NCBI GenBank assembly: GCA_003550725.1 | Contig: PUKZ01000097.1 | Span: 5,884-69,883, forward strand | DNA from: Bacteroidales bacterium | GTDB taxonomy: Bacteria; Bacteroidota; Bacteroidia; Bacteroidales; UBA7960 | Reading direction: 5' to 3' | Length of the DNA stretch: 64,000 bases | In this document: positions 24,435 through 58,803 of the stretch, one piece after another | How positions within the stretch are numbered: the stretch's first letter is position 1 | Layout: every line of letters starts with the position of its first letter | Made by a program: the position numbers and the translations under genes | The notes under the pieces: generated by a model | The model's database searches: none | The model's input: the letters and a program-made list of their open reading frames with translations, nothing else | Told to the model about the DNA's origin: nothing

Positions 24435-24542
24435 TAAGTAGTTGATGGCTTATAAAGCCGGTATCTATAATATTATTAAAAAAACAAATATTGCAAGTCT
24501 GAATTTAAAGGACATTAAATATTTAAAAGAGAAGTAAATATT

Positions 24543-26719: not shown

Positions 26720-26743
26720 TTAAGAAGTGTAATTTTTAACAGC

Positions 26744-26978: not shown

Positions 26979-27048
26979 TGGTCAATATCTAAAAACTTCT
27001 AAGTTAACAAATATAATTTATTATAAGTAAGAACTTTAAATACATTTT

Positions 27049-28503: not shown

Positions 28504-28571
28504 ACTGGCTGTAAGGGTTTTTTATAAATTGTTATTTAATAAAAAAAATTTTTGAATCTAATAACTCAAAC

Positions 28572-30050: not shown

Positions 30051-30140
30051 AACTAAAAGTTAAGAAAGTTAAAAGATAATAAGTTTTAAGTAAATTAATT
30101 AATCTTTCAATCTTTTTAAGGAGTTATTGAAAACCTAGTT

Positions 30141-32147: not shown

Positions 32148-32222
32148 AAAATAAAACCGAATTAATATTTTTTTACAGACTCTTTTGTAAAAGAGCCTAA
32201 TATATATTTGCGTTAATAAATA

Positions 32223-32885: not shown

Positions 32886-32897
32886 GAGGAATAAATT

Positions 32898-33829: not shown

Positions 33830-34663
33830 ATGAGCAAAAAATATTCAAATGATATAGAAGTTGCAAGGAATTATTATAACAGTTCTGATGCCCACACTTT
33901 TTATTATATGATATGGGGAGGGGAAGACCTTCATCTGGGCATTTATAATTCGGAAGATGAAGACATATACCGGGCTAGCCGCAGAGCTGTTGATCGTATA
34001 GCTTCTTATTTTGAAAAAATTGATCAAAACACAAAAATTATCGATTTTGGTGGTGGATTTGCTGGTTCAGCCAGGCATCTTGCAAAAAAATATGGTTGTC
34101 ATGTTACTGTAATTAACCTAAGCGAAACCGAAAACAAACGTGGCCGGAAAATGAATGAAGAACAAGGCCTTAGCCATTTAATTGATATTATTGATGGTAG
34201 TTATGATGATGTGCCTTTTGAAGATGAAACTTTTGATATTGTATTCTCCGAAGATGCTATACTACACAGTAATAATAAAGAAAAAGTTATTAGTGAAGCC
34301 TATCGGCTACTTAAACCTAATGGAGATTTTGTTTTTTCCGACCCAATGCAAACCGATAATTGCGACGAAAAGGTTTTAAAACCCATTTATGAAAGAATAA
34401 ACCTTTCATCATTGGGATCACCTGCATTTTATAAGGAAAAATGCAAACAGGCCGGGTTTAAAGAAATCAATTTTGAAGAGTTGGATAAACATTTGGCAAT
34501 TCATTATTCACGAATTCTTGCGGAAACAGAGAAAAAGCAGAAAGAACTTGAAAAATATGTTTCAAAAGAATATATAGAGAATATGAAAAAAGGATTGAGA
34601 CACTGGATAAAAGGAGGTGAAGAAAATAATTTGACCTGGGGGATTTTTCATTTTAAAAAATAG
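33830..34663 (+). CDS. Sarcosine/dimethylglycine N-methyltransferase (SDMT, SAM-dependent; glycine betaine synthesis)
   Basis: ARNYYNS.DA..FY..IWGGEDLHLGIY N-terminus, SAM motif IDFGGGFAG, SEDAILHS, FSDPMQ, MKKGL.HW..GG....LTWGIF C-terminus characteristic of halophile SDMTs. Confidence 0.88.
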   Translation: MSKKYSNDIEVARNYYNSSDAHTFYYMIWGGEDLHLGIYNSEDEDIYRASRRAVDRIASYFEKIDQNTKIIDFGGGFAGSARHLAKKYGCHVTVINLSETENKRGRKMNEEQGLSHLIDIIDGSYDDVPFEDETFDIVFSEDAILHSNNKEKVISEAYRLLKPNGDFVFSDPMQTDNCDEKVLKPIYERINLSSLGSPAFYKEKCKQAGFKEINFEELDKHLAIHYSRILAETEKKQKELEKYVSKEYIENMKKGLRHWIKGGEENNLTWGIFHFKK

Positions 34664-34842
34664 CAGTTAATTTTTTATATGGATGTTTTTCAAAATGGTT
34701 TATTTGGAAGTTTTGAAAATTTGTTTTTAATTGTCTGTTTTTGATATTAAGTTTTTTTTATCAGTATATAATATATCGAGATTAACTTTAAAAATTATAA
34801 ATAACTATTTATTAAAATAATAACATAAAATTATATAATATC

Positions 34843-36267
34843 ATGAATAATTTAGAAAAGATTGATGAGAATATTAATTATCGGGTAAAAGATATTAATC
34901 TTGCCGAGTTAGGCCGAAATGACATACGTTTGGCCGAACATGAGATGCCCGGATTGGTTGAATTAAGAAAGAGGTATGGTAAGGAGCAGCCGTTAAAGGG
35001 AGCTCGAATAATGGGGTCATTGCATATGACTACCCAAACTGCTGTGCTTATTGAAACATTGACGGCTCTTGGTGCTGATGTTCGTTGGGCAAGTTGTAAT
35101 ATTTTTTCAACACAAGATGAAGCAGCAGCAGCAATTGCCAAAACCGGTGTTCCTGTTTTTGCATGGAAGGGGGAAACTCTTGATGAATACTGGTGGTGTA
35201 CTGCACAGGCTTTAACTTTTCCCGGTGGTAAAGGACCCGATTTGATTGTTGATGATGGTGGAGATGCTACTTTGATGGTCCTACTTGGTCATCAGGCTGA
35301 AAAAGATCCTTCAATTCTTGAAAAAAACGCCGAAGCATGGGATGAAATAGCATTGCTAAAAAGACTAAAGTCTCTGCAACAACAGGATAAAGATAAGTGG
35401 CACAGGATGGTAGAAGACATTCAGGGTGTATCGGAAGAAACAACTACCGGTGTGCACAGGCTTTATCAAAGAGAAAAGGAAGGAACTCTTCCATTTCCCG
35501 CTATTAATGTTAATGACTCTGTTACGAAATCAAAGTTTGATAATAACTATGGAAACAGGGAGTCGTTGATTGACGGTATAAAAAGAGCTACTGATGTGAT
35601 GATAGCAGGAAAAACAGCTGTAGTATGTGGTTATGGCGGTGTTGGCAAAGGATGTGCACAAGGTTTAGCCGGTTTTGGAGCTAAAGTTATCATTACAGAA
35701 GTAGATCCTATATGTGCTCTGCAAGCCGCTATGGAAGGATATGAAGTGAGAACCGTAGAAGAAATTCTCGATAGAGGCGATATTTACGTTACAGCTACAG
35801 GTAATAAAGATGTTATTACTGTGGATCATATGAGTAAAATGAAAGATAAAGCCATAGTGTGCAATATCGTGCATTTTGATAATGAGATACAACTTGAAAA
35901 ACTTGAAGAAAGAAAAGACGTCAAAAAAATAAATATTAAACCACAGGTTGACGAATATGTATTTCCGGATGGACATTCAATAATAATGCTTGCAGAAGGA
36001 AGATTAGTGAACCTGGGTTGTGCTACAGGACATTCTTCATTTGTGATGAGTAATTCATTTGCAAACCAGGTGCTTGCACAAATAGATCTTTGGAAAACCG
36101 ACCGTAAACCCGGTGTTTACATGTTGCCAAAAAAACTTGATGAAGAAGTTGCCCTGGCTCACTTGAAACATCTTAATATTAGTCTTTCCAAAATGACTAA
36201 AGAACAAGCCGATTACCTGGGTGTGCCTGTAGATGGACCGTATAAAACTGAACATTACAGGTATTAA
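34843..36267 (+). CDS. ahcY: Adenosylhomocysteinase
   Basis: [64 protein letters not shown]-terminus. Confidence 0.97.
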
Positions 36268-36463
36268 AAATAATATTTTTTAATGCATGTTTGCTTATAA
36301 TATTTAAGTATTTGTTTTTAGATTTCAAATATTTGAAAGCTAAAATTGTTTTAGACCTTTTAAATATTGTCAAACCTTTCTTAAAACATTTATATTATTG
36401 GCAGACATTATAAAATAATAAACATAAGAAAATCATAAATTATAAATTATAAAATAATAAATT

Positions 36464-37735
36464 ATGCCTTATTTATTTACTTCAGAATCAGTATCGGAAG
36501 GACATCCCGATAAAATTGCTGATCAAATATCAGATGCTGTATTGGATGAATTGTTAAAGGATGATCCTGACGCTAAATGTGCAGCCGAAACTTTTGTAAC
36601 TACCGGACTTTGCCTGGTAGGAGGAGAAATTAGAACCACTACTTATGTGGAAGTGCAGGATCTTGCACGTGAAGTTATAAGAAGAATTGGTTATACCAAG
36701 CCTGATTATCGTTTTGATGCCGATTCCTGCGGTGTTCTTACAGCTATCCACGAACAATCTCCTGATATATTCAAAGGTGTGGATAGAGAAATACAGGAGG
36801 AGCAAGGAGCCGGCGACCAGGGAATGATGTTCGGCTTCGCTACAAACCAAACAGAAAACTATATGCCCTTGCCCCTGGATATCTCTCACCGCATATTAAA
36901 AGAACTGGCTTCAATACGAAAAGTTGGAGGTGATATGCCATATCTCAGACCCGACTCTAAAGCACAGGTTACTTTTAAATATGATGATGACGACACGCCA
37001 ATAGGTATTGATACAATAGTTGTTTCAACACAACATGATGATTTCATTAAGCCCACTGGAGTGGGAGAAAAAGCCCAGGATAAGGCCGACAGGGATATGC
37101 TTGGTAAAATTGAAACTGATGTTGAAAACATACTCATCCCCAGGGTAAAAGCAACTTATCCGGCTGAAATTCAAAAGTTTTTTGATGTAAAGTATAAGTT
37201 GTTTGTTAACCCTACAGGTAAATTCGTTGTTGGAGGTCCTCATGGTGATACCGGATTAACCGGAAGAAAAATTATCGTCGATACTTATGGTGGATTTGGC
37301 CGTCATGGTGGTGGTGCTTTTTCCGGAAAAGATGCATCAAAAGTTGACCGCTCAGCAGCCTATGCAGCAAGACATATTGCTAAAAATATGGTTGCAGCCG
37401 GCATAGCCGATGAAGTTGAAATACAGCTAGCCTACGCCATTGGAGTTGCTGACCCTGTAGGCTTATTCGTTTCTACTAAAAGACCAAAAGTAAAACTAAC
37501 AAACGAAGAAATAGCCGAAAAGATAAATAAATTGTTTGATCTTCGTCCAAGTGCTATTATAAAAAGATTTGGCTTAAAAAATCCAATTTTTCAGGAAACA
37601 GCTGCTTACGGACATATGGGCAGGAAACCGGGTAAAAAAGTTGTATATGTTAATGGTAATAAAAAAGAAGTAGAAACATTTACCTGGGAAAAGCTGGATT
37701 ATGTTGATAAAATAAAGCAAGAGTTTAATTTGTAA
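36464..37735 (+). CDS. metK: S-adenosylmethionine synthetase (Bacteroidota type)
   Basis: [55 protein letters not shown]. Confidence 0.98.
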
Positions 37736-37740
37736 ATTAA

Positions 37741-37787
37741 TAACGGGTGAATTACTAACGGGTAACGAGTTTACACGTTACCCGTTA
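37741..37787 (+). repeat. Perfect 12-bp stem-loop with a duplicated arm between metK and adenosine kinase
   Basis: taacgggtaacg (37756-37767) / cgttacccgtta (37776-37787); extra taacgggt copy at 37741. Confidence 0.7.
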
Positions 37788-37808
37788 TCCCAAAATAATT
37801 ATTAATAT

Positions 37809-38777
37809 ATGGATAAAGTATTAGGTATAGGTAATGCACTTATTGATACTATGGTGCGTCTTGATAATGATGATTTTCTCAAAGAGGTAAATCTGCCAAA
37901 GGGAAGTATGCAATTGGTTGATAGCGACGAGAGTAAAAAAATTGCAAAAAAGTGTGAAGGTTTTAAAAAATCAAAATCAAGCGGAGGTTCTGCCGCTAAT
38001 ACGATTCATGGGCTTGCCAGGCTTGGTGTTAGTGTAGGGTATATTGGTAAAGTTGGAAAAGATGAACTGGGTGATTTTTTCATTAATGATCTTAAAAAAA
38101 GCCGGATAAGGCCTAATATATTATATGGAAATAGTAATAGCGGCCATGCTTTGGCTCTTATATCACCTGACTCCGAAAGGACTTTTGCTACTCATTTAGG
38201 TGCAGCCCTTGAACTAAGCGCTGATGATCTTAAAAATGAATTTTTTGAAGATTACGATTTTTTGCATATAGAAGGGTATCTTCTTCAAAATCATAGCCTT
38301 ATGCAAAAAGCCCTTGAAATGGCCAAAAATAATGGCCTGAAAATATCACTTGACCTTGCCAGCTTTAACGTTGTTGAAGATAATCTTGATGTATTAACTG
38401 AATGGGTTGAAAATTATGTTGATATATTATTTGCTAATGAAGAAGAAGCAAAGGCTTTTACAGGTAAAGAACCTGAAGAAGCACTTCATGAATTAGCTGA
38501 AAAATCTGAAATAGCTGTTGTAAAAATAGGTAAGCATGGTTCATTGATAAAAAAAGGTGAAGATGTATTTAAAATAGAACCTATAAAAGTGAATGCTACA
38601 GACACAACCGGTGCAGGCGATGCATATGCAGCCGGCTTCCTGTTTGGGCTGGTAAAAGGCTATAACCTTGAAAAATGTGGTGAAATTGCTTCCATATTGG
38701 CAGGAAAGGTTATTGAAGGTACGGGAGCCAAGATGAATGAAGAAAAGTGGAAAGAGGTTTATGAGATTATTGGTTGA
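37809..38777 (+). CDS. Adenosine kinase (PfkB family)
   Basis: GIGNALID, PKGSMQL, GGSAANT, ERTF.T.LGA, FANEEEA, DTTGAGD; follows ahcY-metK. Confidence 0.82.
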   Translation: MDKVLGIGNALIDTMVRLDNDDFLKEVNLPKGSMQLVDSDESKKIAKKCEGFKKSKSSGGSAANTIHGLARLGVSVGYIGKVGKDELGDFFINDLKKSRIRPNILYGNSNSGHALALISPDSERTFATHLGAALELSADDLKNEFFEDYDFLHIEGYLLQNHSLMQKALEMAKNNGLKISLDLASFNVVEDNLDVLTEWVENYVDILFANEEEAKAFTGKEPEEALHELAEKSEIAVVKIGKHGSLIKKGEDVFKIEPIKVNATDTTGAGDAYAAGFLFGLVKGYNLEKCGEIASILAGKVIEGTGAKMNEEKWKEVYEIIG

Positions 38778-38868: not shown

Positions 38869-39681
38869 ATGAACTTTCGTATATACTTAGCTTTTTTCTT
38901 ATTATTTATTACAACTTCCGGTTATACCACCAAAAATATCAATGTTGTATCCCTGTCTCCATCACTTACCAAAATGATATATTTGCTTGAAAGCCAGGAT
39001 AATCTTGTGGGTTGTACTGAGTTTTGCGATATACCCGAAGAGGATGAAAAAAATATCGTGGCTTCACAAATGAATGTTAACGTAGAAAAAATCCTTTCCA
39101 TTTCACCCGATTTAGTTATTACAACTAAATTAACCTCTGCCCGGTATATTGAGACCTTAAAGAAAACCGGTGTAAATACCAGAGTTTTAGGTACTCCCGA
39201 ATCTTTTGTAGAACTGTGTGACCAATTTATTAAAATAGGCAAGCTTATCGGGAAAGAAGATTTAGCCGTTTCTATAATAGAACAGCAAAAATCCAGACTG
39301 GCAAGGCTGCAACAAAAAATTCCGGATAACGATAATCCTGAGATATTTATGCAGCTTGGTGTTAAGCCTTTGTTTACTGTTATTCCGGGTACTTTTATGA
39401 ATGATTATATAAATCTTTCTGGTGGAGTTAATATTGCCTCCGACTTGACAAAGGGTACAATAACCCGTGAAACGGTTTTAACCAGAGACCCTGATGTTAT
39501 AATTATAGTCTTGATGGGCATGGTTGGTGAAGAAGAAAAACAAAACTGGAAAAGTTATTCCGGCCTTAGAGCTGCTGAAAAAGATAAAATATTCATGATC
39601 GATGAGGATAAAGCCTGTAGCCCAACACCTGTGACTTTCGTTGATACTGTGGAGGAGATAATTGACCTTATGTATAATTAG
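38869..39681 (+). CDS. ABC transporter substrate-binding protein, BtuF/cobalamin-siderophore class
   Basis: Signal peptide, VVSLSPS.T, LVGCTEFCD, NVEKIL...PDLV, PDVII. Confidence 0.8.
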   Translation: MNFRIYLAFFLLFITTSGYTTKNINVVSLSPSLTKMIYLLESQDNLVGCTEFCDIPEEDEKNIVASQMNVNVEKILSISPDLVITTKLTSARYIETLKKTGVNTRVLGTPESFVELCDQFIKIGKLIGKEDLAVSIIEQQKSRLARLQQKIPDNDNPEIFMQLGVKPLFTVIPGTFMNDYINLSGGVNIASDLTKGTITRETVLTRDPDVIIIVLMGMVGEEEKQNWKSYSGLRAAEKDKIFMIDEDKACSPTPVTFVDTVEEIIDLMYN

Positions 39682-39776
39682 TGAAAAGTTATGAGATTAT
39701 TCTATAATTTCGTAAATAATTTTATACCACAGAATTTCAAAGAGATTTTATAAAACAATAAAACCGGCCAAAAGGG

Positions 39777-40790
39777 ATGCACAAAAAATTTATAAGGTGG
39801 ATTACTTTTATTTCAACTCTAATATTGCTTTTAATTATTACCTTTTTGGTTGGTTTATCAACCGGTGAAATTGATATTTCCATTTTTGAAATCCCGAAAA
39901 TACTTATTGGTAAAGAAGGTATAGAATACACAATAATAAGCCAGATAAGGTTGCCGAGATTATTGTTGGGAATTGCAGTAGGCGGTGGGTTAAGTTTGTC
40001 AGGCGCAATTTTGCAGGGCATATACCGAAATCCTTTGGTAGAGCCTTATACACTCGGAATTTCAGGTGGTGCTGCTTTTGGTGTTGCAATAGCTATTGTT
40101 TTTGCCCTTCCTCTGGCGTTTGGTTCATTTATCTTACCTGTTGCAGGATTTTTAGGGGCTTTTATAACTATTTTTTTAGTATATTTTTTGGGATTAAGGC
40201 AGGGGGAGATTAATGTAAATAATATGTTGCTTATCGGTGTTATGATAAGCTTTGTATCATCGGCGGCAATGATGCTGTTAATGGCAGTTACAACTTCCGA
40301 AAACCTCCATAGCATAATTTTTTGGATGATGGGGTCTCTGGATGAACCTAAAATGTCTTTAATAGCATTAACATTAACAATATCTGTAATAACGTTTATT
40401 TTATCCTTGTTTTTTTCAAGACCATTAAATGCTTTGCGAATAGGAGAAACAAATGCAAAACATTTGGGTATTAATACTGTCGCTTCTATACGCATTCTGT
40501 TTATCATAGCCTCGCTTTTAGCAGGTGCATGTGTTGCTGCTGCCGGTGTTATAGGGTTTGTAGGATTGGTAATCCCGCACCTTATAAGAATAATTGCGGG
40601 GTCTGACTACAGAATACTTCTGCCCGGATCATTTTTGGGAGGTGGAATATTTTTGATAATATGCGATACAATTGCCCGAACGATTATTTCGCCCAATGAA
40701 CTGCCTATTGGTGTGATTACCGGAATTGCCGGGGGAATAATGTTTATTGTCATACTCAGCAGGTCAAAATCAAATTTTAAAATGAGCTAA
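39777..40790 (+). CDS. ABC transporter permease, BtuC/FecCD family
   Basis: RLPR, GAILQ...RNPLVEPY.LGISGGA, W.MGSL, IGFVGL..PH, ELPIG. Confidence 0.9.
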   Translation: MHKKFIRWITFISTLILLLIITFLVGLSTGEIDISIFEIPKILIGKEGIEYTIISQIRLPRLLLGIAVGGGLSLSGAILQGIYRNPLVEPYTLGISGGAAFGVAIAIVFALPLAFGSFILPVAGFLGAFITIFLVYFLGLRQGEINVNNMLLIGVMISFVSSAAMMLLMAVTTSENLHSIIFWMMGSLDEPKMSLIALTLTISVITFILSLFFSRPLNALRIGETNAKHLGINTVASIRILFIIASLLAGACVAAAGVIGFVGLVIPHLIRIIAGSDYRILLPGSFLGGGIFLIICDTIARTIISPNELPIGVITGIAGGIMFIVILSRSKSNFKMS

Positions 40791-40793
40791 ACT

Positions 40794-41600
40794 ATGCCGG
40801 CTTTCTTAAAAATAGACGATTTTTCATGTGGCTACGAAAAGTTTGTTCTGAAACACATTAACTTTAAAATGGAACGTGGCGAGCTTACAGGTATAGTTGG
40901 ACCTAATGGCTCAGGTAAAACCACACTTTTCAGAGGGATAACCGGAGAGCTGGAAGCTAAAGAAGGATCGGTTTCTCTTAATGAAAAGACCTTGCAATCA
41001 ATGAGTTTCAAAGAAAAAGCAAAACACCTTGCCGTGGTTTCGCAGCATATAACCGCCACAGATATTAAGGTAGAGGACTATGTGTTGATGGGCCGTTTGC
41101 CACACAGAAAGAAATTTCAGTTTTTCGAAACTCCTCACGATTACCGCATTGCATATGAATATATGAAGCTTACCAATGTATATCATTTGAAAGACAAATT
41201 CATGTCAAAAATAAGCGGAGGTGAGCAGCAACTTGCCAATATTGCCAGAGCACTAACTCAGCAACCCGAACTGCTTCTCCTTGATGAGCCCACATCACAT
41301 CTTGATATTACCCACCAGGTGCAAATCTTGAATCTTATTCAAAAACTCAACCAGGAAATGCAACTTTCGGTATTGATGATTATTCATGACCTCAATCTTG
41401 CAGGCGAATATTGTGATTATTTGATCATGCTTAATGACGGTAAAATACACAGAAAAGGGCTGCCGGAAGAAGTTCTGAATTACAAAGACATAGAAGATGT
41501 TTATAAAACAGTAGTGGTAGTCAAAGAAAATCCGGTCTCAAAAAAACCCGCCGTTTTTCTTGTGTCAGAAAAAATCTTGAGTAACGAAAAAAGTTCATAG
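40794..41600 (+). CDS. ABC transporter ATP-binding protein, BtuD/FepC family
   Basis: GPNGSGKTT, ISGGE.Q, LLLDEPTSHLD, HDLN. Confidence 0.92.
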   Translation: MPAFLKIDDFSCGYEKFVLKHINFKMERGELTGIVGPNGSGKTTLFRGITGELEAKEGSVSLNEKTLQSMSFKEKAKHLAVVSQHITATDIKVEDYVLMGRLPHRKKFQFFETPHDYRIAYEYMKLTNVYHLKDKFMSKISGGEQQLANIARALTQQPELLLLDEPTSHLDITHQVQILNLIQKLNQEMQLSVLMIIHDLNLAGEYCDYLIMLNDGKIHRKGLPEEVLNYKDIEDVYKTVVVVKENPVSKKPAVFLVSEKILSNEKSS

Positions 41601-47310: not shown

Positions 47311-47347
47311 ATATAGAAACAGCAAAAATAAAAAACAAATTAAACAT

Positions 47348-49959: not shown

Positions 49960-50313
49960 AACAAGTAGTTTTTAATATTTGTTTTCAGACATTTTTTTAA
50001 TTTCAAAATCAATAATTAAACTTTATTTCTACCCGGTTGTTATTCCTGGCATAAATGTAATATTTTATTAAATATTTATATGCATAATATTTAATAATTT
50101 GAATTTTTTTTTGCTGACTTTCTGGTTATTCTAAACATTTTTGTCTGTTAAAGAGCCGACTTAAATTTTATAGATCAGTTGATTATGTTGGCTTATTATT
50201 TTTTTGGGTTTTGTTTATTGTTTGATGTATTTTTCAATGTATTGATAATATGATAGCTATAGGTTTAATTTGCTTTATTTTCAATAGTTTTTGAATATTA
50301 TAAGTAATTCCTT

Positions 50314-50338
50314 TACCTTTGTAGTTTAAATAAATTTG
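50314..50338 (+). promoter_or_regulatory. Bacteroidota -7 promoter boxes upstream of hdrC
   Basis: TACCTTTG (50314-50321) and TAAATTTG (50331-50338). Confidence 0.5.
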
Positions 50339-50351
50339 CATAAAATTATTT

Positions 50352-50873
50352 ATGGAATTCAACGAACTAGAGAAGAAAAAGATTTTATACAAGGAGACTA
50401 CTCTTTGCTATCAATGTGGTAAGTGTTCAAGTGGATGCCCGTTAGTTGAAGAAATGGATATGTTTCCTCATATAGTTATTCATTTAGCATCTCTTGGTTT
50501 GGAGGAAAAAGTATTGAATACCGATACTATATGGATTTGTGCCAGCTGTTATGCATGCGCTGTTAAATGTCCCAATGATATTGAAATTCCCGGTATAATG
50601 AACCAGCTTAAGCAGATGGCTGTCGAAAAAGGTCTTAAACCTAAAAGGAATGAGATATACAAATTTCATAAGACTTTTACGGGTGATATTTTAAGAAGGG
50701 GAAAAGTGCATGAATTTAGAATCATGTTGGAATATAATTTACGTTTAGGTAAGCCTTTCAAAAATGCTATGTTAGGTCCAAAGATGCTTTTCAAGAACAA
50801 ACTGCATTTTACTCCCCCGAAAGAGGTCAAGGGTTTTCGCAAGTGGCTGGAAAAAGCTAATCGTAAGGGTTGA
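50352..50873 (+). CDS. hdrC: Heterodisulfide reductase subunit C-like 2x[4Fe-4S] protein
   Basis: CYQCGKCSSGCP and WICASCYACAVKCP. Confidence 0.92.
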   Translation: MEFNELEKKKILYKETTLCYQCGKCSSGCPLVEEMDMFPHIVIHLASLGLEEKVLNTDTIWICASCYACAVKCPNDIEIPGIMNQLKQMAVEKGLKPKRNEIYKFHKTFTGDILRRGKVHEFRIMLEYNLRLGKPFKNAMLGPKMLFKNKLHFTPPKEVKGFRKWLEKANRKG

Positions 50874-50934
50874 CCGGGTGGAGATAGTTTTATCTTTGTG
50901 AAAAAAGCTTTTTTTTCGGAATAAATGATTTGCT

Positions 50935-51816
50935 ATGGATAAAGATAGTATTGTTTTGTATCCTGGTTGTAGTTTGGAAACCAGTTCGTCTCATTACCTT
51001 CAAAGTTTAAAAACGGTATTTGGTGTGTTGGATATACCGTTTAGGATTTTGGACAACTGGAATTGTTGTGGAGCTACATCCGTTAAATCAATAGATGAAC
51101 ATTTAAATTTATTGCTAAGTTTTAAAAACCTGGCTTTAGCTGAAAATCAAGGTTTTAGGGAACTTGTCGTGCCATGTGCATCTTGTTATTTCAGATTGTT
51201 AGGAGCTGAATATGAGCTTAATAAAGATAATAAGCTGTGCGAGGATTTAAACAAAAAAAGTGATCTTCCTTATAAAGGTAAAGTTAAAGTCAGAAATATA
51301 CTTGACTTTTTTGTAAATGTAGCCGGCCTTGATCTTATTTCTGAACATGTTAAAATGCCGCTTAAAGGGCTTACTATAGCTTGTTATTACGGGTGTCTTA
51401 ACACTCGCGTACCGGTGGAAAAAGCTTTTGATGTACGTGAATACCCCAAAACCATGGATAATATTGTGAGGACACTGGGGGCAAATGTGGTTGACTGGTC
51501 TTATAAAACCGATTGCTGTGGAGCAAGTTTGTTTATTACTGTAAATTCAATTGCAGAAAAGCTGGTGGGGAAAGTGTTGAAGGATGCCAGCTTAAGGAAG
51601 GTTGATTGTGTTACTGTTTCCTGCCCTATGTGTCAAACCAATTTGGATACCAAACAAAGTATAATACGGAAAAAATATTCTATAGAACATCCAATACCTG
51701 TGCCTTTTATCACCCAGTTGATGGGTTTGGCCTTCGGATGTACCCCTAAAGAATTGGGACTGAAGAAAAATTTTGTTCCAATTGAATCAATTCTAGAAAA
51801 AAGTTCGGTAAACTAA
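50935..51816 (+). CDS. hdrB: Heterodisulfide reductase subunit B-like (two CCG domains)
   Basis: YPGC, WNCCG, PCASC, YYGC, DCCG, SCPMC. Confidence 0.92.
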   Translation: MDKDSIVLYPGCSLETSSSHYLQSLKTVFGVLDIPFRILDNWNCCGATSVKSIDEHLNLLLSFKNLALAENQGFRELVVPCASCYFRLLGAEYELNKDNKLCEDLNKKSDLPYKGKVKVRNILDFFVNVAGLDLISEHVKMPLKGLTIACYYGCLNTRVPVEKAFDVREYPKTMDNIVRTLGANVVDWSYKTDCCGASLFITVNSIAEKLVGKVLKDASLRKVDCVTVSCPMCQTNLDTKQSIIRKKYSIEHPIPVPFITQLMGLAFGCTPKELGLKKNFVPIESILEKSSVN

Positions 51817-51859
51817 TTTAAGACCAAAATTTTTAAAAATAAAAAGGAGCTTTATTATA

Positions 51860-54800
51860 ATGCATAATAAGCAAATAGGTTCAGTATTAGTTATAGGAGG
51901 AGGTATTGCGGGAATGCAGGCTGCAATTGACAGTGCCGAAATGGGCTATAAGGTTTACCTGCTCGAAAACAAGCCTTCTATTGGTGGTAACATGGCTAAA
52001 CTCGACAAGACATTTCCTACCAATGATTGCGCTATGTGTATGATATCTCCCAAGCTTGTTGAGGTAGGACGTCACTTAAATATTGAAATTATATCTTACT
52101 CAGAGCTTAAAAAGCTGGAAGGAGAAGCAGGAAATTTCACAGCTATAATTAATAAAAAAGCCCGTTATGTTGATGAAAATGAGTGTAATGGTTGCGGTGA
52201 ATGTGAGTTGGAGTGTCCTGTAGTTAGAAAAGATGAATTTAACGGAGAGTTATCAGACCGGAAAGCAATTTACCGTTTGTATCCCCAGGCAATACCTAAT
52301 GTATATACCATCGACAAGTCAACACCTCTGCCACCATGCAAAACAACCTGCCCTGCCGGGGTTAATGTGCAGGGATATACCGCACTTATTGCCAAGGGTA
52401 AATTTTTGGAGGCAGCTGATCTTATCAGGGAGAAAATGCCTTTTGTTGGTATTTGTGGCAGGATATGCCATCATCCATGTGAGTATAATTGCAACAGGAA
52501 AGAAATTGACGAATCTTTATCTGTACGTAATTTAAAGCGCTTCGTTGCTGATTATGAAAGAAAGCGCCTGGAAGCAGGGGATTTGCCAGACAGGCATAAT
52601 CAAGCTAAAAAAGATGATATTAATGGTTGTAATGAAAAAGTTGCTGTTGTAGGTGGGGGGCCTTCAGGTTTAACCTGTGCTTATGACCTGTTGAAAAAAG
52701 GATATAAAGTTACCGTATTTGAAGGCAGCGATAAGCTGGGAGGAATGATGCGTACAGGTATCCCTGATTACAGGCTGCCCAAAGACTATCTCGACTATGA
52801 GATCGGGTTAATGCTTGATGAGGGTATAGAAGTTCAATATGGGCAAGTACTGGGAAAAGATTTCACCATTCAACAGCTTAAAAAGCAAGGATACAGGTCA
52901 GTGTATATTTCGCTGGGAGCTCAAAACGCAAAACAAATACCGCTTGATACAACCGGTGGTAAAGGAGTGATTTATGGTATTCCCTTTCTTAAGCAAATCA
53001 GTGAAGGTAAAAAGCCTTCAGTGGGTTCGAAAGTTGCTGTTATCGGGGGAGGTAATGTTGCTGTTGATGTAGCTCGTTCGGTTGTTCGTATGGGCTCTGA
53101 AGTTACTATCGTTTATAGGCGCAGCAAAGAAGAGATGCCTGCACATTCGTGGGAAATAGATGAAGCCATTGAGGAAGGCGTTCAAATAGAAAACTCATGG
53201 TCGCCTAAAAAAGTCATATTTGAAGATGGAAAGGTTATTGGACTGGAGGTTGAAAAATGTGTTACTATATATAAAAGCAACGGAAAACGTTCGTTGAAGA
53301 CCGACCCAGATCAAACGAAAATTATTGCCGCAAATACTGTTATACCTGCTACAGGTCAGGAATGTGATCTTTCAGGACTTGATTCTTCGATAAATACAGA
53401 TAAAGGTTGGATATGTGTTGACCCCTTAACCCTTGAATGTTCTGAAGAAGGGGTGTTTGCAGGGGGAGATATGGTTACCGGGCCTTCATCTCTGGTGGAG
53501 TCAGTAGCCCAGGGACACCGCGCTGCAGAATCTATCCATCGTTACGTTAATAACAGGGATTTAAGATCGGGCAGAAAAGAGCCGGCCGGCGATAATGATG
53601 TTGCAGGTATTCCTGACAGGGCAGATAGAAATATTGCACAACGAGTAAGGCCATTATCTGTAAAAGCTGAAGTCAGAAATAAGAATTTTGAGGAGATAGA
53701 AAGTACTTTTACAGAGGAAGAAGCTGTAAAAGAAGCCCAAAGATGTTTACAGTGTGCAAGTTGTGCTGAGTGCATGGAGTGTGTGCGCATATGCAAAGCT
53801 GAATGTGTTATACATGATCAAAAAGATGAAATAACTCAAATTAATGTTGGCACGGTTATAGCTACCGGTGGGTTTGTACCGTTTGATGCAAAACAAAAAC
53901 CCGAATATGGATTTGGTATATATCCCAATGTGGTTACCAGTATACAGTTTGAACGTATATTAAGTGCTTCCGGGCCCTATGAAGGTCATATAACAAGACC
54001 CTCTGACGGCAAAGCACCAAAAAAAATAGCCTGGATACAATGTGTCGGTTCAAGAGATGTGACTCCTACAGGTAATGATTATTGTTCTTCTGTATGTTGC
54101 ATGTATGCTCTTAAAGAGGCTATGGTTGCCAAAGAGCATGATCCCGAAATTCAACCCTATATTTTTTATATTGATATAAGGGCTTTTGGTAAAGGTTTTG
54201 AAAGTTTCTACAAGCAAGCCCGATATGAGTCAGGAGTTAAGTTTGTGCGTAGTCAAATATCTTCTGTTAAAGAGAACCCGCTCAATAAAAGCCTTCGGCT
54301 TACTTATATTGAAGACAGAATATTTAAAGAAGAAGAGTTTGATATGGTAGTGCTTTCGGTTGGTTTATTATCCAATCCTGACAACATAAGTATTAGTGAT
54401 ATACTAAACATCGAACAAAACCAATTTGGATTTTTTAAAGAGGAATCATTGAAACCACTTATTTCTACGCGCAAAGGGATTTATCTGTGCGGAGCAGGCA
54501 ATGGCCCAAGCGATATCCCGGAATCGGTTACACAGGGAAGCTCCGCTGCTTCATTAGGTAGCGAACTTCTCAGGGATGTTAGAAATACAGAAATATCTGC
54601 AAAAAAATATCCTATCGAGAAGAATGTGGAAAAAGAGAAAGCGAGAATAGGAGTATTTATCTGCCATTGTGGTATAAATATCGCTTCAGTGGTTGATGTT
54701 GAAGCCGTTGCCAAATATGCCAGAAACTTACCGGGAGTTGTTTACGCCGAACATACAATTTATAATTGTTCGCAGGATACACAAAAGCGAATGAAAGAAA

Positions 54801-56305
54801 TTATTGCCGAACAAAACCTCAACAGGGTTGTTGTAGCATCCTGTACCCCGCGTACTCACGAAGGTTTGTTTCAGGAAACCCTTAGAGAAGCCGGACTGAA
54901 TAAATATCTTTTTGAAATGACCGATATACGCGAACAATGTTCGTGGGTACATCAAAAAGAGCCCAAATTAGCAACAGAAAAAGCTAAAGCATTAGTTAGG
55001 GGAAGTGTTGGAAAAGCAAGATATCTTGAACCCCTGCAACTGAAAACAATATCCGTAAATAAAAACGCTATGGTTGTGGGAGGTGGTATAACTGGTATGA
55101 CTGCTGCACTATCTTTGGCAAGACAAGGTTTTAGAGTTTATCTTATTGAAAAGGAGAATGAATTGGGCGGTAACCTGGTCTTTTTGAATAAAGAGCTGTA
55201 TGGAGAAGACTGGCAGATGTTTTTGAAAAATAAAATCAGGGAAGTGAATGAAAATGAATTAATAGAAATACATCTGAACAGTAATATAAAATCTGTCAAC
55301 GGATCAATAGGAAATTTTACGACTACCTTGGATGATGGTAAAACTGAGATCCATCACGGCATAATTATCATTGCTACAGGTGCAAAAGAATATGAAACCA
55401 AAAACTTCCTGTATGGAAAAAATAAAAATGTTATTACACAAAGAAATTTTGAGTTTGAACTGGATAAAAAAGAAAAATTCGGAACGGTTGTAATGATACA
55501 ATGCGTTGGTAGCAGGGATGACGAAAATAATTATTGTTCAAGGGTATGTTGTAGTGAAGCTATTAAAAATGCTATCAATATAAGGGAGAAAGACCCCGGA
55601 TCTAATGTATATATTCTTTACAGAGATATCAGAACATATACGATTCGTGAAATTTTTTACCGCAAAGCAAGAGAATTAGGGGTAAAATTCATCCATTTTC
55701 CTGATAAACAATATCCGGAAGTTAAAGAAAAAGGAGATAAACTACTTATCACCCTAAAAGACACGGTGTTAAATGAGGAGGTATCAATAAATTGTGATCT
55801 GCTTTTGTTAAGTGCAGGTATTCAGGCAACAAAAGAGTCAAATAGTCAACTGGCTGAATTGATGAAGCTTCCTATGGATGAACATGGCAATTTTATGGAA
55901 GCACATGCTAAACTTCGCCCTGTTGATTGTGCCAATGAGGGGATGTTTATATGCGGATTGGCTCATTCTCCCAAAAATACGGAAGAGAACATTATGCAGG
56001 GGGTTGCTGCAGCAGGCAGGGCAGCAACTATATTATCAAAAGATACCCTTGAAGTAGGAGGGGTGGTATCGGTGATTGAAGAAGAAAAATGTGCATCATG
56101 TCTTACATGCATCAGGGAGTGTATATTTAATTCACCATTTATTAATGAAAACGGGAAAGCTGAAATTGACCCGGCTAAATGCCAGGGATGTGGTAATTGT
56201 GCCGCTGCCTGTCCAGCTAATGCCATACAATTGCTGACTTTTACCGATGAACAGGAAAACGCCCTGTTTAAAAATATTTTGTCAAAAGATGAAACCTTTA
56301 TCTAA
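51860..56305 (+). CDS. hdrA: Large HdrA-like flavoprotein: two HdrA modules with an inserted GltD-like NAD(P)H oxidoreductase domain
   Basis: LDKTFPTNDC, two IQCVGSRD/YCS.VCC motifs, CHCG.NI, IREQCSWVH, GltD-like PCKTTCP/CGRICHHPCE/GGGNVA/YRR, several ferredoxin motifs; 1481 aa. Confidence 0.92.
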   Translation: MHNKQIGSVLVIGGGIAGMQAAIDSAEMGYKVYLLENKPSIGGNMAKLDKTFPTNDCAMCMISPKLVEVGRHLNIEIISYSELKKLEGEAGNFTAIINKKARYVDENECNGCGECELECPVVRKDEFNGELSDRKAIYRLYPQAIPNVYTIDKSTPLPPCKTTCPAGVNVQGYTALIAKGKFLEAADLIREKMPFVGICGRICHHPCEYNCNRKEIDESLSVRNLKRFVADYERKRLEAGDLPDRHNQAKKDDINGCNEKVAVVGGGPSGLTCAYDLLKKGYKVTVFEGSDKLGGMMRTGIPDYRLPKDYLDYEIGLMLDEGIEVQYGQVLGKDFTIQQLKKQGYRSVYISLGAQNAKQIPLDTTGGKGVIYGIPFLKQISEGKKPSVGSKVAVIGGGNVAVDVARSVVRMGSEVTIVYRRSKEEMPAHSWEIDEAIEEGVQIENSWSPKKVIFEDGKVIGLEVEKCVTIYKSNGKRSLKTDPDQTKIIAANTVIPATGQECDLSGLDSSINTDKGWICVDPLTLECSEEGVFAGGDMVTGPSSLVESVAQGHRAAESIHRYVNNRDLRSGRKEPAGDNDVAGIPDRADRNIAQRVRPLSVKAEVRNKNFEEIESTFTEEEAVKEAQRCLQCASCAECMECVRICKAECVIHDQKDEITQINVGTVIATGGFVPFDAKQKPEYGFGIYPNVVTSIQFERILSASGPYEGHITRPSDGKAPKKIAWIQCVGSRDVTPTGNDYCSSVCCMYALKEAMVAKEHDPEIQPYIFYIDIRAFGKGFESFYKQARYESGVKFVRSQISSVKENPLNKSLRLTYIEDRIFKEEEFDMVVLSVGLLSNPDNISISDILNIEQNQFGFFKEESLKPLISTRKGIYLCGAGNGPSDIPESVTQGSSAASLGSELLRDVRNTEISAKKYPIEKNVEKEKARIGVFICHCGINIASVVDVEAVAKYARNLPGVVYAEHTIYNCSQDTQKRMKEIIAEQNLNRVVVASCTPRTHEGLFQETLREAGLNKYLFEMTDIREQCSWVHQKEPKLATEKAKALVRGSVGKARYLEPLQLKTISVNKNAMVVGGGITGMTAALSLARQGFRVYLIEKENELGGNLVFLNKELYGEDWQMFLKNKIREVNENELIEIHLNSNIKSVNGSIGNFTTTLDDGKTEIHHGIIIIATGAKEYETKNFLYGKNKNVITQRNFEFELDKKEKFGTVVMIQCVGSRDDENNYCSRVCCSEAIKNAINIREKDPGSNVYILYRDIRTYTIREIFYRKARELGVKFIHFPDKQYPEVKEKGDKLLITLKDTVLNEEVSINCDLLLLSAGIQATKESNSQLAELMKLPMDEHGNFMEAHAKLRPVDCANEGMFICGLAHSPKNTEENIMQGVAAAGRAATILSKDTLEVGGVVSVIEEEKCASCLTCIRECIFNSPFINENGKAEIDPAKCQGCGNCAAACPANAIQLLTFTDEQENALFKNILSKDETFI

Positions 56306-56411
56306 CATAGGTGAACCAAAGAGAATAAAACTTAACATAAGCGATTTAACAACCGGAGTGAGTAAATAATAGAGGGTATTAAATAACATATTGAAGCAAA
56401 AATATAAGTAG

Positions 56412-56843
56412 ATGGAAGGAAAAGAACCAAAAATAATAGCTTTTTGTTGTCATTATTGTGCATTTACGGCAGCCGACCTGGCCGGAACCATGCGTCAGCA
56501 ATATCCTACCAACATTCATATTGTGCGTTTGCCATGCACGGGAAAAGTGCATGTGAATATGTTGTTGCAGGCATTTGTCGATCAAGCTGATGGTGTTATA
56601 GTAGCAGGCTGCGAAATTGGTAGCTGCCATTTTCTTGAAGGAAATACCAGGGCAAGAAAAAGAGTAGCCCTTGCGAAACAGAAACTTGAAGAAGCAGGCG
56701 TTGACCCGGAAAAACTTGATATGTACTACATCCCTGCATCTGAAGGACAGCTTTTTGCTAAAACGGCACATGAGTTTACAGAAAGGATTAAACGCCTAAA
56801 TGAAAACAAAAAAGAACAACCCGGAATAACAAATAGCAAATGA
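56412..56843 (+). CDS. mvhD: MvhD/FlpD-like [2Fe-2S] subunit
   Basis: FCCHYC...AAD, RLPCTGKV, ADGV...GC..G.CHF..GN. Confidence 0.93.
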   Translation: MEGKEPKIIAFCCHYCAFTAADLAGTMRQQYPTNIHIVRLPCTGKVHVNMLLQAFVDQADGVIVAGCEIGSCHFLEGNTRARKRVALAKQKLEEAGVDPEKLDMYYIPASEGQLFAKTAHEFTERIKRLNENKKEQPGITNSK

Positions 56844-57042
56844 AACCTTCATTAACCTGTGATAGGTTAATTAAGTAAAAGCCATTAATAGTTATCCGTA
56901 ATTAAGTTTTTAAATATCAAAGTTTTAATACATTTTATTCAAAATATAAAAATAAATAAACCCGGTTGGAGATTTAAGATGTTTGGTTATTCACATAAAC
57001 ATTAGTAATAGATAATTTGACTAATATGAAGGAGGAAAAAAT

Positions 57043-57726
57043 ATGATTGTTGCCGAACAAAAGCCTTTTGAGCAAATATTTAATTCAGTAAAAAATTATG
57101 AGAACATCATGGTTTTGGGTTGTGGCACTTGTGTGACAGTTTGTATGGCCGGTGGCGAACATGAGGTTGGTGTTCTTACAAAACAATTAATACTTGCTGC
57201 CAAACAAAATAATGTCAATCTGAATGTTGAAGAGTTGACAATTACCCGCCAATGCGACAAGGAATTTTTTGATGAAAATACGACTAATAAGATAAAAGAG
57301 GCTGATGCCGTACTTTCATTGGGATGCGGTGTTGGTGTTCAATATATTGTTGAATTATTTCCGGATATGATCGTTAAGCCGGGTGTAAACACTAAGTTTT
57401 TAGGAGCTAATATTTCCCAGGGGTTATGGTCAGAACGCTGCGGGGGTTGTGGTGAATGTGTGTTGGATGAATATGAAGGCATTTGTCCTGTTGCCAGGTG
57501 TGCCAAAAGTTTGATGAACGGCCCTTGCGGAGGTTCTTCAAATGGTATGTGTGAAGTTGACCCGGAAAATATTGAATGTGCCGGACAGCTCATATACGAC
57601 CGGTTTAAGCGGCTTAATAAACTTGAAACATTACTGGAATTTAAACCGGCCAAGAATTGGTCTTTAAGTCGTGACGGAGGCCCGCGAAGAGTGGCAAGAG
57701 AAGAGATGATGTTTGATGATGAATAA
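57043..57726 (+). CDS. metV: Methylenetetrahydrofolate reductase Fe-S/Zn subunit MetV
   Basis: GCGTC..VC..GG, RQCD.EF, CGVGVQ, CGGCGEC.L....GICP..RC.KSL.NGPCGG...G.CEV. Confidence 0.92.
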   Translation: MIVAEQKPFEQIFNSVKNYENIMVLGCGTCVTVCMAGGEHEVGVLTKQLILAAKQNNVNLNVEELTITRQCDKEFFDENTTNKIKEADAVLSLGCGVGVQYIVELFPDMIVKPGVNTKFLGANISQGLWSERCGGCGECVLDEYEGICPVARCAKSLMNGPCGGSSNGMCEVDPENIECAGQLIYDRFKRLNKLETLLEFKPAKNWSLSRDGGPRRVAREEMMFDDE

Positions 57727-57834
57727 ATTATTTTTAAGCCTTTAAAATATTAAAGGTTTTTGCAGATCATTATCTGTTACTCTTTAACCACTGGCCGTCA
57801 ATCATAAATTAGTAAATATAAAAACATAATATTC

Positions 57835-58803
57835 ATGGACAAAAACAAAACAAGCTCAGATAGTCATTTAGAACAGGTTTTGTACTCAGGTGAGTTTACT
57901 TTAACCGGCGAATTGGGCCCGCCAAAAAGCGCCGACAAGAATGATATTATTGAAAAGGCAAAGTCTTTGAAAGGATATGTTGATGCATCTAATATCACTG
58001 ATAACCAAACTGCTATTGCGCGCATGTCTTCAATAGCATCGGGGGTTATTTCTCTTGAACAAGGACTGGAGCCTGTTATACAAATTACCACACGAGACAG
58101 AAACAGGCTGGCTATCCAGAGTGATGTGCTGGGTGCGGCTGCACTGGGTATTAAAAACATATTATGCTTGTCAGGTGATCATCAGTCTTTTGGAAATCAT
58201 CCGACGGCAAAAAATGTATTTGATATTGATTCCATTCAACTCATTAATATGCTTTATAAAATGAGGGAGGAGCAACAATTTGAATGTGGCGATATGATCA
58301 GAAACGGCAAAAAAGGTCCTGTTGTAGAACCAAAAATATTTATTGGTGCAGCAGCAAATCCTTTTGCTGAGCCTCTTGATTTCAGGGTAATGCGATTGGA
58401 AAAGAAGATCAGGGCAGGAGCTGACTTTATTCAAACCCAGGTGATCTATGATATGGATAGATTTAAACAGTGGATGGAAGAAGTAAAACAGAAAGATCTG
58501 CATAAAAAAGTCTATATCCTTGCCGGCATTACACCTTTAAAATCAGCACGAATGGCTAAATACATGAAGGATAATGTGTCAGGTATTTCCTTTACCGGCG
58601 ACATTATTGAAAGGATGGAAAAGGCTGAAGATCAAAAAGCTGAAGGCATACAAATTGCCCTTGAACAAATTGAAGAAATTAAAAGTATGGAAGGGGTACA
58701 CGGAGTGCATCTTATGGCTATAGGTGGCGAAAAGAGCGTTCCGGATATTGTTGAAAAAGCCGGGCTGATGCCACGCCCTTCTGTTAAAGAAATGAAAACC
58801 TGA
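57835..58803 (+). CDS. metF: Methylenetetrahydrofolate reductase flavoprotein, MetV-associated type
   Basis: TGELGPPK, NITDNQ.A..RMSS, RDRNRLAIQSD.LGA, LSGDH, GADFIQTQ, GVHLM. Confidence 0.93.
   Translation: MDKNKTSSDSHLEQVLYSGEFTLTGELGPPKSADKNDIIEKAKSLKGYVDASNITDNQTAIARMSSIASGVISLEQGLEPVIQITTRDRNRLAIQSDVLGAAALGIKNILCLSGDHQSFGNHPTAKNVFDIDSIQLINMLYKMREEQQFECGDMIRNGKKGPVVEPKIFIGAAANPFAEPLDFRVMRLEKKIRAGADFIQTQVIYDMDRFKQWMEEVKQKDLHKKVYILAGITPLKSARMAKYMKDNVSGISFTGDIIERMEKAEDQKAEGIQIALEQIEEIKSMEGVHGVHLMAIGGEKSVPDIVEKAGLMPRPSVKEMKT

What the first reader, a model, noticed from the sequence alone, without database searches (positions are those of the whole stretch)
50352..58803. Acetogen-type HdrCBA-MvhD-MetVF methylene-THF reductase operon in a Bacteroidota genome
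Seen: hdrC, hdrB, a 1481-aa hdrA, mvhD, metV, metF in that order, behind Bacteroidota-type promoter boxes. Known: this hexameric arrangement is the Moorella thermoacetica / Sporomusa-type methylene-THF reductase, proposed to be electron-bifurcating, and is not a typical Bacteroidota trait. No acs/CODH genes occur in the window. Inference: it supplies bulk methyl-THF to the methylation cluster 9-30 kb away. Osmolyte methylation would then double as an electron sink for a fermenter. Alternatively it oxidises methyl groups if the MttB system is catabolic.
Basis: partly seen in the sequence, partly recalled or inferred. Interest (0 to 1): 0.72.

Follow-up and report, generated by a model that had tools for sequence, protein, structure and literature searches.

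The report
NADPH-type Hdr folate reductase in Bacteroidales
Salt-lake Bacteroidales bacteria in which no acetyl-CoA synthase gene was found carry a six-gene folate-reducing complex known from acetogens, whose input site is predicted to use NADPH rather than NADH and which likely supplies methyl groups for making the salt-protecting compound glycine betaine.

Summary
The operon is real, intact and Moorella-type (type IV MTHFR). Soda-lake contigs from three studies cover it evenly and cross both edges. Nine other Bacteroidota genomes carry it, and their MetVF form one clade. No AcsB was found in these 10 genomes. It is rare: no close HdrB in 400 sampled Bacteroidales. It is nested in the MttB-SDMT methyl cluster: 8 of the 9 others carry the cluster (background 12 of 400), and it follows metH-metF in 5 of 7 copies. 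But 14 cluster-bearing genomes lack it, so it is an accessory. New here: the NAD(P)H module of HdrA has the NADP-type YRR motif in the 27 closest homologues, while the sister group mostly has the acidic NAD-type motif; E. coli GltD and PreT calibrate both. No menB was found in the 10 hosts. Best reading (0.55): likely NADPH-driven reductive methyl supply to a SAM cycle for betaine, third carrier unknown. Oxidation of methyl groups is the main rival (0.22). The electron-sink idea is weak (about 1-8% of flux). The scan noted this operon before in another genome (e1-3205733).

The parts
50290..50321 (+). Bacteroidota-type promoter match (-33 and -7 boxes), 31 bases before hdrC
   Evidence: a -7 box also precedes 3 of 4 other stand-alone copies examined; function not tested
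50352..50873 (+). hdrC, two [4Fe-4S] motifs
50935..51816 (+). hdrB, two complete CCG (non-cubane cluster) motifs
   Evidence: both motifs kept in 11 of 11 other copies
51860..56305 (+). hdrA, Moorella/HdrL type, 1481 aa: HdrA module with a GltD-like insert plus a second HdrA module
   Evidence: architecture as in PMC9430772 section 5
52322..53734 (+). GltD/NfnB/StnC-like FAD and NAD(P)H insert (about residues 155-625)
   Evidence: best PDB matches 9BOV_A, 9N5U_A, 8OH5_C, 4YLF_B, 5JCA_L
53114..53122 (+). Y419-R420-R421, predicted NADP(H) 2'-phosphate site
   Evidence: two conserved Arg of NfnB bind the phosphate (PMC6405883)
53951..54115 (+). E698 and K752, bifurcation signature of the first TrxR-like module
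   Evidence: aligned to E356/K409 of 5ODC_A; E in 119 and K in 120 of 120 homologues
55451..55567 (+). E1198 and K1236, signature of the second TrxR-like module
   Evidence: kept in the 27 closest homologues
56412..56843 (+). mvhD, [2Fe-2S] adapter
57043..57726 (+). metV, with the NGPCGG motif
   Evidence: motif named in PMC8515935
57835..58803 (+). metF of the MetVF type (called MetF2 here); E26 and D115 align to E28 and D120 of E. coli MetF
20769..25469 (+). metH and classical MetF (MetF1), head of the linked methyl cluster; no riboswitch found upstream
26081..33698 (+). corrinoid protein, two MttB-family genes, hydantoinase-A-like gene, DUF1638, AcsE-like methyl-THF:corrinoid methyltransferase
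   Evidence: same order in relatives
33830..38777 (+). SDMT-like methyltransferase (below its curated cut-off), ahcY, metK, PfkB-family kinase: SAM cycle of the cluster
38869..41600 (+). BtuFCD-like ABC transporter, probably for cobalamin
   Evidence: below curated cut-offs

Best explanation
The six genes encode a Moorella-type HdrCBA-MvhD-MetVF methylene-THF reductase that is predicted to take electrons from NADPH and likely runs in the reducing direction, adding methyl-THF to a neighbouring B12/SAM methyl cycle that likely makes glycine betaine. Shown: the genes, the cofactor motifs, the link to the cluster, no ACS found, one Bacteroidota clade. Inferred from homology: NADPH is oxidised at the GltD-like insert of HdrA; electrons pass through the signature-bearing HdrA flavins and MvhD to MetV and MetF. 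Inferred: methyl-THF goes to MetH or to the AcsE-like/corrinoid pair, then to methionine, SAM and the SDMT-like enzyme; an Stn-like transhydrogenase supplies NADPH. Inferred and open: the reaction is coupled to a third carrier, more likely ferredoxin or a dithiol at HdrB than self-made menaquinone. It is an accessory to the classical MetF, moved sideways between salt-dwelling Bacteroidales.
For: Operon in 9 of 80 loci titled Bacteroidota, 62-86% identity. Their MetVF, with the window and 4 metagenome copies, form one 14-row clade, SH-aLRT 100. AcsB 0 of 26 Bacteroidales, 6 of 8 nearest outside hosts. MttB1 orthologue (82-89%) in 8 of 9 other hosts, 0 of 8 outside hosts, background 12 of 400; hosts fall in 3 RpoB lineages plus the window's family. 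metH-metF1 stands 76-102 bases before hdrC in 5 of 7 genome copies and in 8 of 11 metagenome contigs with visible upstream DNA; in G063 only cobalamin-handling genes part it from mtgC-mttB. YRR in the 27 closest HdrA, one clade on a tree built without the insert; acidic motif in the sister P0028 and in 40 of 44 at 55-61%. E. coli GltD has YRR, NAD-annotated PreT has Glu at R421. With literature potentials NADPH shifts both proposed couplings towards reduction by 10-19 kJ. SDMT with sahh and sams marks betaine synthesis in M. portucalensis; GSMT in 4 of 10 hosts.
Against: 14 cluster-bearing genomes lack the operon, and MetF1 already covers reduction. If NADPH must first be made by Stn from NADH and ferredoxin, bifurcation gives no net gain (inference). 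Co-occurrence may partly reflect shared saline habitat, and kin are not independent. The characterised non-pyrrolysine MttB enzymes are demethylases (recalled; MtgB), and in R. pomeroyi a second metF is proposed to oxidise methyl-THF. No GSMT in G000 or in 5 other hosts. In G000 the operon has its own promoter, 8.8 kb from the cluster. YRR predicts but does not prove NADPH use; it also arises in 4 other HdrA of the 120. I could not see which motif Moorella HdrA has.
Confidence: 0.55

Rival explanations
1. Oxidative role: the MttB enzymes strip methyl groups from betaine or other methylamines, and the type IV enzyme oxidises methyl-THF, which the classical MetF cannot do with NAD+. FolD, Fhs (ATP) and formate dehydrogenase finish the oxidation, with H2 or formate passed to partners.
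For: A second MTHFR beside MetF1 is best explained by a second direction. G000 has two Fhs, a formate dehydrogenase above the TIGR01591 cut-off next to one of them, a group A6 [FeFe] hydrogenase, Rnf and a BCCT transporter. Full-length Fdh in 7 of 10 hosts against 4 of 14 cluster-only genomes (descriptive p 0.095). Type IV enzymes are proposed to oxidise methyl-THF in methylotrophic Moorella and Sporomusa. MetF2 precedent in R. pomeroyi.
Against: An NADP site makes the proposed methyl-THF to MQ plus NAD(P)+ coupling uphill (+8.5 against -1.2 kJ). No menB in 10 of 10 hosts. Close spacing behind metH-metF1 suggests co-expression with a reductive enzyme. No RamA/RACo activator found in G000-G004. 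The cluster works in 14 genomes without this enzyme.
Confidence: 0.22
2. Catabolic C1 dismutation: methylene-THF from glycine cleavage is partly oxidised (NADP-FolD, Fhs, ATP) and partly reduced by this enzyme with the NADPH so formed; the methyl group is unloaded on glycine or sarcosine by MttB running backwards, a terminal sink that replaces ACS.
For: G000 has GcvP, GcvT, a GcvH-like gene, SHMT, FolD and two Fhs; an NADP-type HdrA would match an NADP-type FolD (motif reading recalled). No GSMT in 6 of 10 hosts, no ACS.
Against: No reverse MttB reaction is shown here. GSMT coexists with the MttB pair in 10 of 24 operon- or cluster-bearing genomes. No LpdA motif found in G000 (crude motif, 89% complete assembly). 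No exporter is linked to the operon.
Confidence: 0.1
3. The operon is a plain back-up NAD(P)H:methylene-THF reductase for methionine supply, or has a role unrelated to the cluster, and the co-occurrence reflects a shared habitat.
For: Stand-alone in G000, G062 and G064; absent from 4 of 4 congeners; patchy on the cluster tree.
Against: All bifurcation and CCG motifs are kept, costly for a back-up. In G000 the SAM riboswitch controls another metH (contig C17), not the cluster metH, and none was found before metH-metF1-hdr in 4 contigs. 8 of 9 co-occurrence.
Confidence: 0.1
4. Assembly or binning artefact: the operon comes from an acetogen and was joined to a Bacteroidales contig.
For: Absent from 36 of 36 family members searched; tetranucleotide distance in the outer 9% of 264 genome windows; no single contig spans the laid stretch.
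Against: Nine other Bacteroidota genomes hold it beside Bacteroidota genes. Contigs of independent runs bridge mscS-hdrC and metF-downstream at even depth. RuvB on the same contig is 87-89% identical to congeners.
Confidence: 0.03

Closest known systems
Type IV MTHFR HdrCBA-MvhD-MetVF of Moorella thermoacetica (Mock et al. 2014, not held; seen as described in PMC8760232, PMC9430772, PMC8515935)
   Same: Gene set and order; HdrA of nearly the same length (1481 against 1487 aa) with a GltD insert in the first module and E/K signatures in both modules (E698/K752, E1198/K1236 against E696/K750, E1204/K1246).
   Different: Moorella HdrA oxidises NADH; here the site is predicted NADP-type. Host has no ACS/CODH found, keeps a classical MetF, has no menB found, and links the operon to an MttB-SDMT cluster.
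Type IV MTHFR of Sporomusa ovata (PMC9430772)
   Same: Same six genes; host also has Rnf and an Stn-like transhydrogenase.
   Different: S. ovata HdrA is 101 kDa, lacks the GltD insert and has one E/K signature; it serves acetogenesis.
HdrL of Desulfobacterium autotrophicum (PMC2702500)
   Same: Heterodisulfide reductase/glutamate synthase fusion followed by mvhD.
   Different: Described with an NADH site and with Fdh or Dsr neighbours, not metVF and a methyl cluster.
StnC (8OH5) and NfnB (4YLF, 5JCA)
   Same: GltD-like FAD/NADP(H) domain with the YRR motif, the best structural relatives of the insert.
   Different: They are transhydrogenase subunits; here the domain is an input module inside HdrA.
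MtgBCD(E) with MetF2 of Ruegeria pomeroyi (PMC12478193)
   Same: Corrinoid hub shared by methionine synthesis and an MttB-family enzyme, DUF1638, and a second MTHFR.
   Different: Aerobic and catabolic; single-gene MetF2; RamA present. Here SDMT, ahcY and metK are in the cluster and no RamA was found.

Membership tests
Type IV (Hdr-type) MTHFR | hdrC, hdrB, hdrA, mvhD, metV, metF in one cluster | tested here: met
Type IV (Hdr-type) MTHFR | MetF of the MetVF type with catalytic Glu and Asp; MetV with NGPCGG and Fe-S cysteines | tested here: met
   E26, D115; differs from E. coli MetF at T59, H88, R118, F223, Y275 like other MetVF proteins
Type IV (Hdr-type) MTHFR | HdrA with the E356/K409-type bifurcation signature | tested here: met
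   both modules
Type IV (Hdr-type) MTHFR | Six subunits form one complex from one transcript | not testable with these tools
   gaps of 43-199 bases, one full promoter match; no RNA holder listed; no complex prediction run
Type IV (Hdr-type) MTHFR | Bifurcation or confurcation with a third carrier | not testable with these tools
   unproven even in Moorella
Moorella subtype | GltD insert in the first module, no inserted ferredoxin domain in the second | tested here: met
Moorella subtype | NADH as the nicotinamide carrier | tested here: inconclusive
   motif predicts NADPH instead; Moorella sequence not obtained, no assay
Sporomusa subtype | HdrA of about 101 kDa without GltD insert | tested here: not met
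   1481 aa with insert
Wood-Ljungdahl acetogen | ACS and CODH | tested here: not met
   no PF03598 in G000 or 9 other hosts; the only prismane protein of G000 is Hcp; assemblies incomplete
Wood-Ljungdahl acetogen | Methyl branch: Fdh, Fhs, FolD, MTHFR, methyl-THF:corrinoid methyltransferase | tested here: met
SAM-dependent betaine synthesis (GSMT plus SDMT) | GSMT present | tested here: not met
   not found in G000; found in 4 of 10 operon hosts

The most novel reading that the evidence does not exclude
A lineage of type IV MTHFR left the Wood-Ljungdahl pathway, switched its input from NADH to NADPH and now bifurcates to ferredoxin in hosts without their own menaquinone pathway, driving methyl groups onto glycine through reversed MttB enzymes: an ACS-free end point for the methyl branch that makes betaine and may serve as a fermentative sink in salt-lake Bacteroidales.
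Probability: 0.15. Interest if true: 0.8.

Novelty: new variant of a known kind. Interest (0 to 1): 0.52.

Why it matters
The third electron carrier of type IV MTHFR has been unknown since 2014; ferredoxin failed in Moorella and menaquinone is the current proposal (PMC13040438, PMC13391211, passages). These homologues offer a natural test: mesophile-habitat hosts with no ACS and no menB found, and a matched pair of clades that differ at the nicotinamide site. If NADPH is the donor, ferredoxin reduction becomes feasible where NADH falls short. It would also show an acetogen enzyme reused for osmolyte synthesis in abundant fermenters of saline sediments.

Tried and rejected
DsrC/DsrK-like module as the dedicated HdrB partner: present in G000 but in only 2 of 10 hosts and in 3 genomes without the operon; rejected as obligate. 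Menaquinone as self-made third carrier: menB 0 of 10 hosts, no convincing MqnA/D in 4 hosts tested; not excluded, because G000 has weak MenA-like and MenG-like genes that could use salvaged precursor. Glycine/betaine reductase: none found in G000, but no control rang, so uninformative. RNA evidence: no RNA holder listed. Riboswitch control: none at gathering score in the window, in L011, L012 or before metH in L279, L280, L281, L283; PYLIS hits inside mttB reflect coding similarity. Sigma-70 promoter and terminator scan: no excess over shuffles. Moorella HdrA sequence: not among the retrieved homologues, not in the supplement text; Mock et al. 2014 not held. No solved structure of MetV. Whole-domain swap of the insert: not needed, insert identity falls smoothly across the motif boundary; the insert tree gave no usable group table. 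G000 has no assembled rpoB, so congeners stand in for it. No structure or complex prediction was run, since it could not test the cofactor or the direction.
Full report
OBSERVATION. [quoted passage not shown] HdrB has two complete CCG motifs, MvhD its cysteine pattern and MetV NGPCGG, each also in 11 of 11 other copies checked. MetF keeps E26 and D115, aligned to E. coli E28 and D120, and differs from E. coli and from the window's own classical MetF1 at T59, H88, R118, F223 and Y275, as do the 8 other MetVF-type proteins aligned. One full Bacteroidota promoter match lies 31 bases before hdrC (consensus recalled).

NOT AN ARTEFACT. The genome (G000) is 3.02 Mb, 89% complete, 2.65% contaminated. 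Ten runs hold the stretch or part of it; the two best are marked as possible sources. Contigs of X3, X4 and X5 (soda lake metagenomes, three studies) cover 30, 29 and 27 of 30 bins of 40400-60300 at similar depth; one bridges 49598-50437 and one 57252-59707, though none spans the whole. Of 80 loci returned for MetF, 9 are titled Bacteroidota or Bacteroidales; 7 show all six genes in order and 2 begin inside hdrA. RuvB on the same contig is 87-89% identical to 2 congeners and 68-71% to G061, G062 and G064, while the operon's nearest named relatives are those three genomes. GC3 is 0.31-0.35 against 0.26-0.31 in 4 neighbours, and 8.7% of 264 genome windows are as far in tetranucleotide space. Inference: lateral transfer between Bacteroidales families of one habitat.

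HDRA ANATOMY. Residues 9-154 and 635-858 align to one HdrA module of 5ODC_A, 926-1077 and 1294-1461 to a second; 155-625 match GltD-like domains. This is the layout given for Moorella HdrA, not the Sporomusa one (PMC9430772 section 5). E698/K752 and E1198/K1236 match the bifurcation signature in both modules.

THE COFACTOR SITE. The insert reads YRR at 419-421 and aligns there with StnC, NfnA and NfnB. In NfnB two conserved arginines bind the extra phosphate of NADP+ (PMC6405883, passages); StnC's GltD domain binds NADPH (PMC10482914, passages). Among the best 120 HdrA homologues (of 7993 scored), the 27 closest (67-100%; the 5 with an organism name say Bacteroidales) all have YRR. The next (P0028, 66%, unnamed) and 40 of 44 at 55-61% have an acidic CLE-type motif, 3 other, 1 YRR; at 52% or less 39 of 47 are acidic, 3 YRR, 5 other; one fragment lacks the site. 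On a FastTree of 81 of these, built without the insert, the 27 form one clade (100) sister to P0028, and the motif changes at least 5 times. E. coli GltD has YRR; PreT, annotated NAD+-dependent, has Glu where the acidic group has it. Moorella HdrA is reported to oxidise NADH (PMC8760232 part 1 and passages; PMC8515935 passages). I could not read its motif. Inference: an NAD-to-NADP switch at the base of the Bacteroidota clade.

HOST METABOLISM. G000 has no AcsB and its one prismane protein is Hcp. It has Fhs twice, a formate dehydrogenase above cut-off in an fhs-nuoE-nuoF-fdhA-mobA row, a group A6 [FeFe] hydrogenase, RnfC, PFOR and an Stn-like three-gene unit (the Stn label is my reading of the domain order), and by motif FolD, GcvP, GcvT, SHMT, Nqr, a [NiFe] hydrogenase and two ATPases. 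AcsB was found in 0 of 26 Bacteroidales and 6 of 8 nearest outside hosts, among which the Bacteroidota MetVF clade is nested (84 rows, quick tree, unrooted, one long branch). menB: 0 of 10 operon hosts, 3 of 14 cluster-only genomes. All these are incomplete assemblies: not found is not absent.

LINK TO THE METHYL CLUSTER. In 400 genomes drawn across the order, 57 have an HdrB at 33-46% and none closer; 12 have the MttB1 orthologue at 82-88%, none of them among the HdrB hits. Of the 9 other operon hosts 8 have it; the miss is a 1.6-Mb assembly. Congeners G001 and G003 have the cluster but no MetV or MetVF-type MetF. So the operon is nested in the cluster's range and is not required: 14 cluster-only genomes. 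G081 has a bare, distant metV-metF. Hosts fall in several lineages on the RpoB tree (26 rows, 3 changes, G000 and G067 missing) and on the cluster tree (19 rows). The Fisher value overstates, since kin and habitat are shared. metH-metF1 stands directly before hdrC in 5 of 7 genome copies and 8 of 11 metagenome contigs with visible upstream DNA (4 of 15 show none; some contigs are near-copies). In G063 the operon is 6.2 kb from mtgC, with cobalamin-handling genes and a cobalamin riboswitch between. In G000 the SAM riboswitch precedes a different metH, so the cluster metH is probably not the housekeeping one.

DIRECTION. For reduction: the NADP site; close spacing behind a reductive MetF1; SDMT with ahcY and metK, as in the M. 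portucalensis betaine cluster (PMC3176816, passages); GSMT in 4 of 10 hosts and 6 of 14 cluster-only genomes. With -370 mV (NADPH in vivo), -320 (NADH), -200 and -74 mV from PMC13391211 and ferredoxin at -450 to -500 mV, two NADPH to methylene-THF plus ferredoxin gives -17 to -8 kJ against +2 to +12 for NADH; NADPH plus menaquinol gives -8.5 against +1.2 (this mixes an in vivo with a standard value). For oxidation: redundancy with MetF1, Fdh in 7 of 10 against 4 of 14, a BCCT transporter (also in non-host G003), and precedents. The electron-sink idea is small: with 0.5-1 M betaine and stated assumptions, 1.3-7.9% of catabolic electrons and 4.5-9% of ATP.

LITERATURE. A 2018 survey of complete genomes found 25 such complexes, mainly Firmicutes and Proteobacteria (PMC6085437, passages). 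Searches listed no paper whose title or abstract start describes this operon in Bacteroidota or an NADPH-type form; one search listed two versions of a gut CODH paper that I did not read, and subscription papers (Mock 2014, Appel 2021) were not seen. Also read as passages: PMC13040438, PMC6295475, PMC2702500, PMC5764234, PMC12478193 (part 1 and passages). The scan itself noted the operon in another soda-lake Bacteroidales (e1-3205733) and judged the giant HdrA ordinary (e1-3205734).

VERDICT. A real, laterally moved type IV MTHFR of the Moorella layout. The family is known; the ACS-free context nested in a betaine-type methyl cluster, the predicted NADPH input and the lack of menB make it a new variant. 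Best mechanism 0.55, interest 0.52.

Noticed in passing
window 30141-32885: A hydantoinase-A-like gene (no B subunit beside it) and DUF1638 sit in every cluster copy examined, while no RamA/RACo was found in G000-G004. DUF1638 tracks RamA in alphaproteobacteria. The pair may be an undescribed corrinoid activator (inference).
   Followed up: partly
L397:725-10625 (G809), L399 (G546), L398 (G620): A second, distant hdrC-hdrB-hdrA-mvhD-metV unit (27-52% identity) without metF behind it, downstream of glutamate-synthase-like genes in G809 and G546; its HdrA has an acidic motif.
   Followed up: partly
L002-L005, L377-L396: MetV-domain frames of 420-545 aa, apparently MetV-MetF fusions, in 24 of 400 Bacteroidales; in L003 beside an AcsE-like and a corrinoid gene.
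   Followed up: no
L191:4763-5779, L201:2074-3087, L202:10069-11118: In G109, G087 and G412 the cluster metH is cut to 338-350 aa, so it forms a split methionine synthase with the corrinoid and AcsE-like proteins.
   Followed up: no
L151:289-3516 (G000:C134): 1076-aa 2Fe-2S, Pyr_redox_2 and DAO fusion; a 65% homologue lies 1.4 kb from the methyl cluster in G434. Possible sarcosine or proline dehydrogenase.
   Followed up: no
L146:1252-4706 (G000:C4): Two-cysteine DsrC, membrane protein, DsrK/TmcB-like protein and a cysteine-desulfurase-like gene; already noted as e1-5144101.
   Followed up: partly
L149:6034-8430 (G000:C17): A third MttB-family gene (30% to the cluster pair) converging with a small SAM methyltransferase; also in G003, G004 and G064.
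   Followed up: no
L141:156-2129 (G000:C72): [FeFe]-hydrogenase-like domain fused to a histidine kinase, downstream of the A6 hydrogenase genes.
   Followed up: no
P0034 and P0065: Near-identical HdrA cores (branches 0.04) with opposite nicotinamide motifs, suggesting recent exchange of the insert.
   Followed up: no
G000:C137: A 43-kb contig at 50% GC with one 13416-codon frame, in a 35% GC genome; giant surface protein or contamination.
   Followed up: no
window 13204-18557: 1157-aa AAA-type protein and metallophosphoesterase pair on the minus strand, SbcCD/Mre11-like (family name recalled).
   Followed up: no
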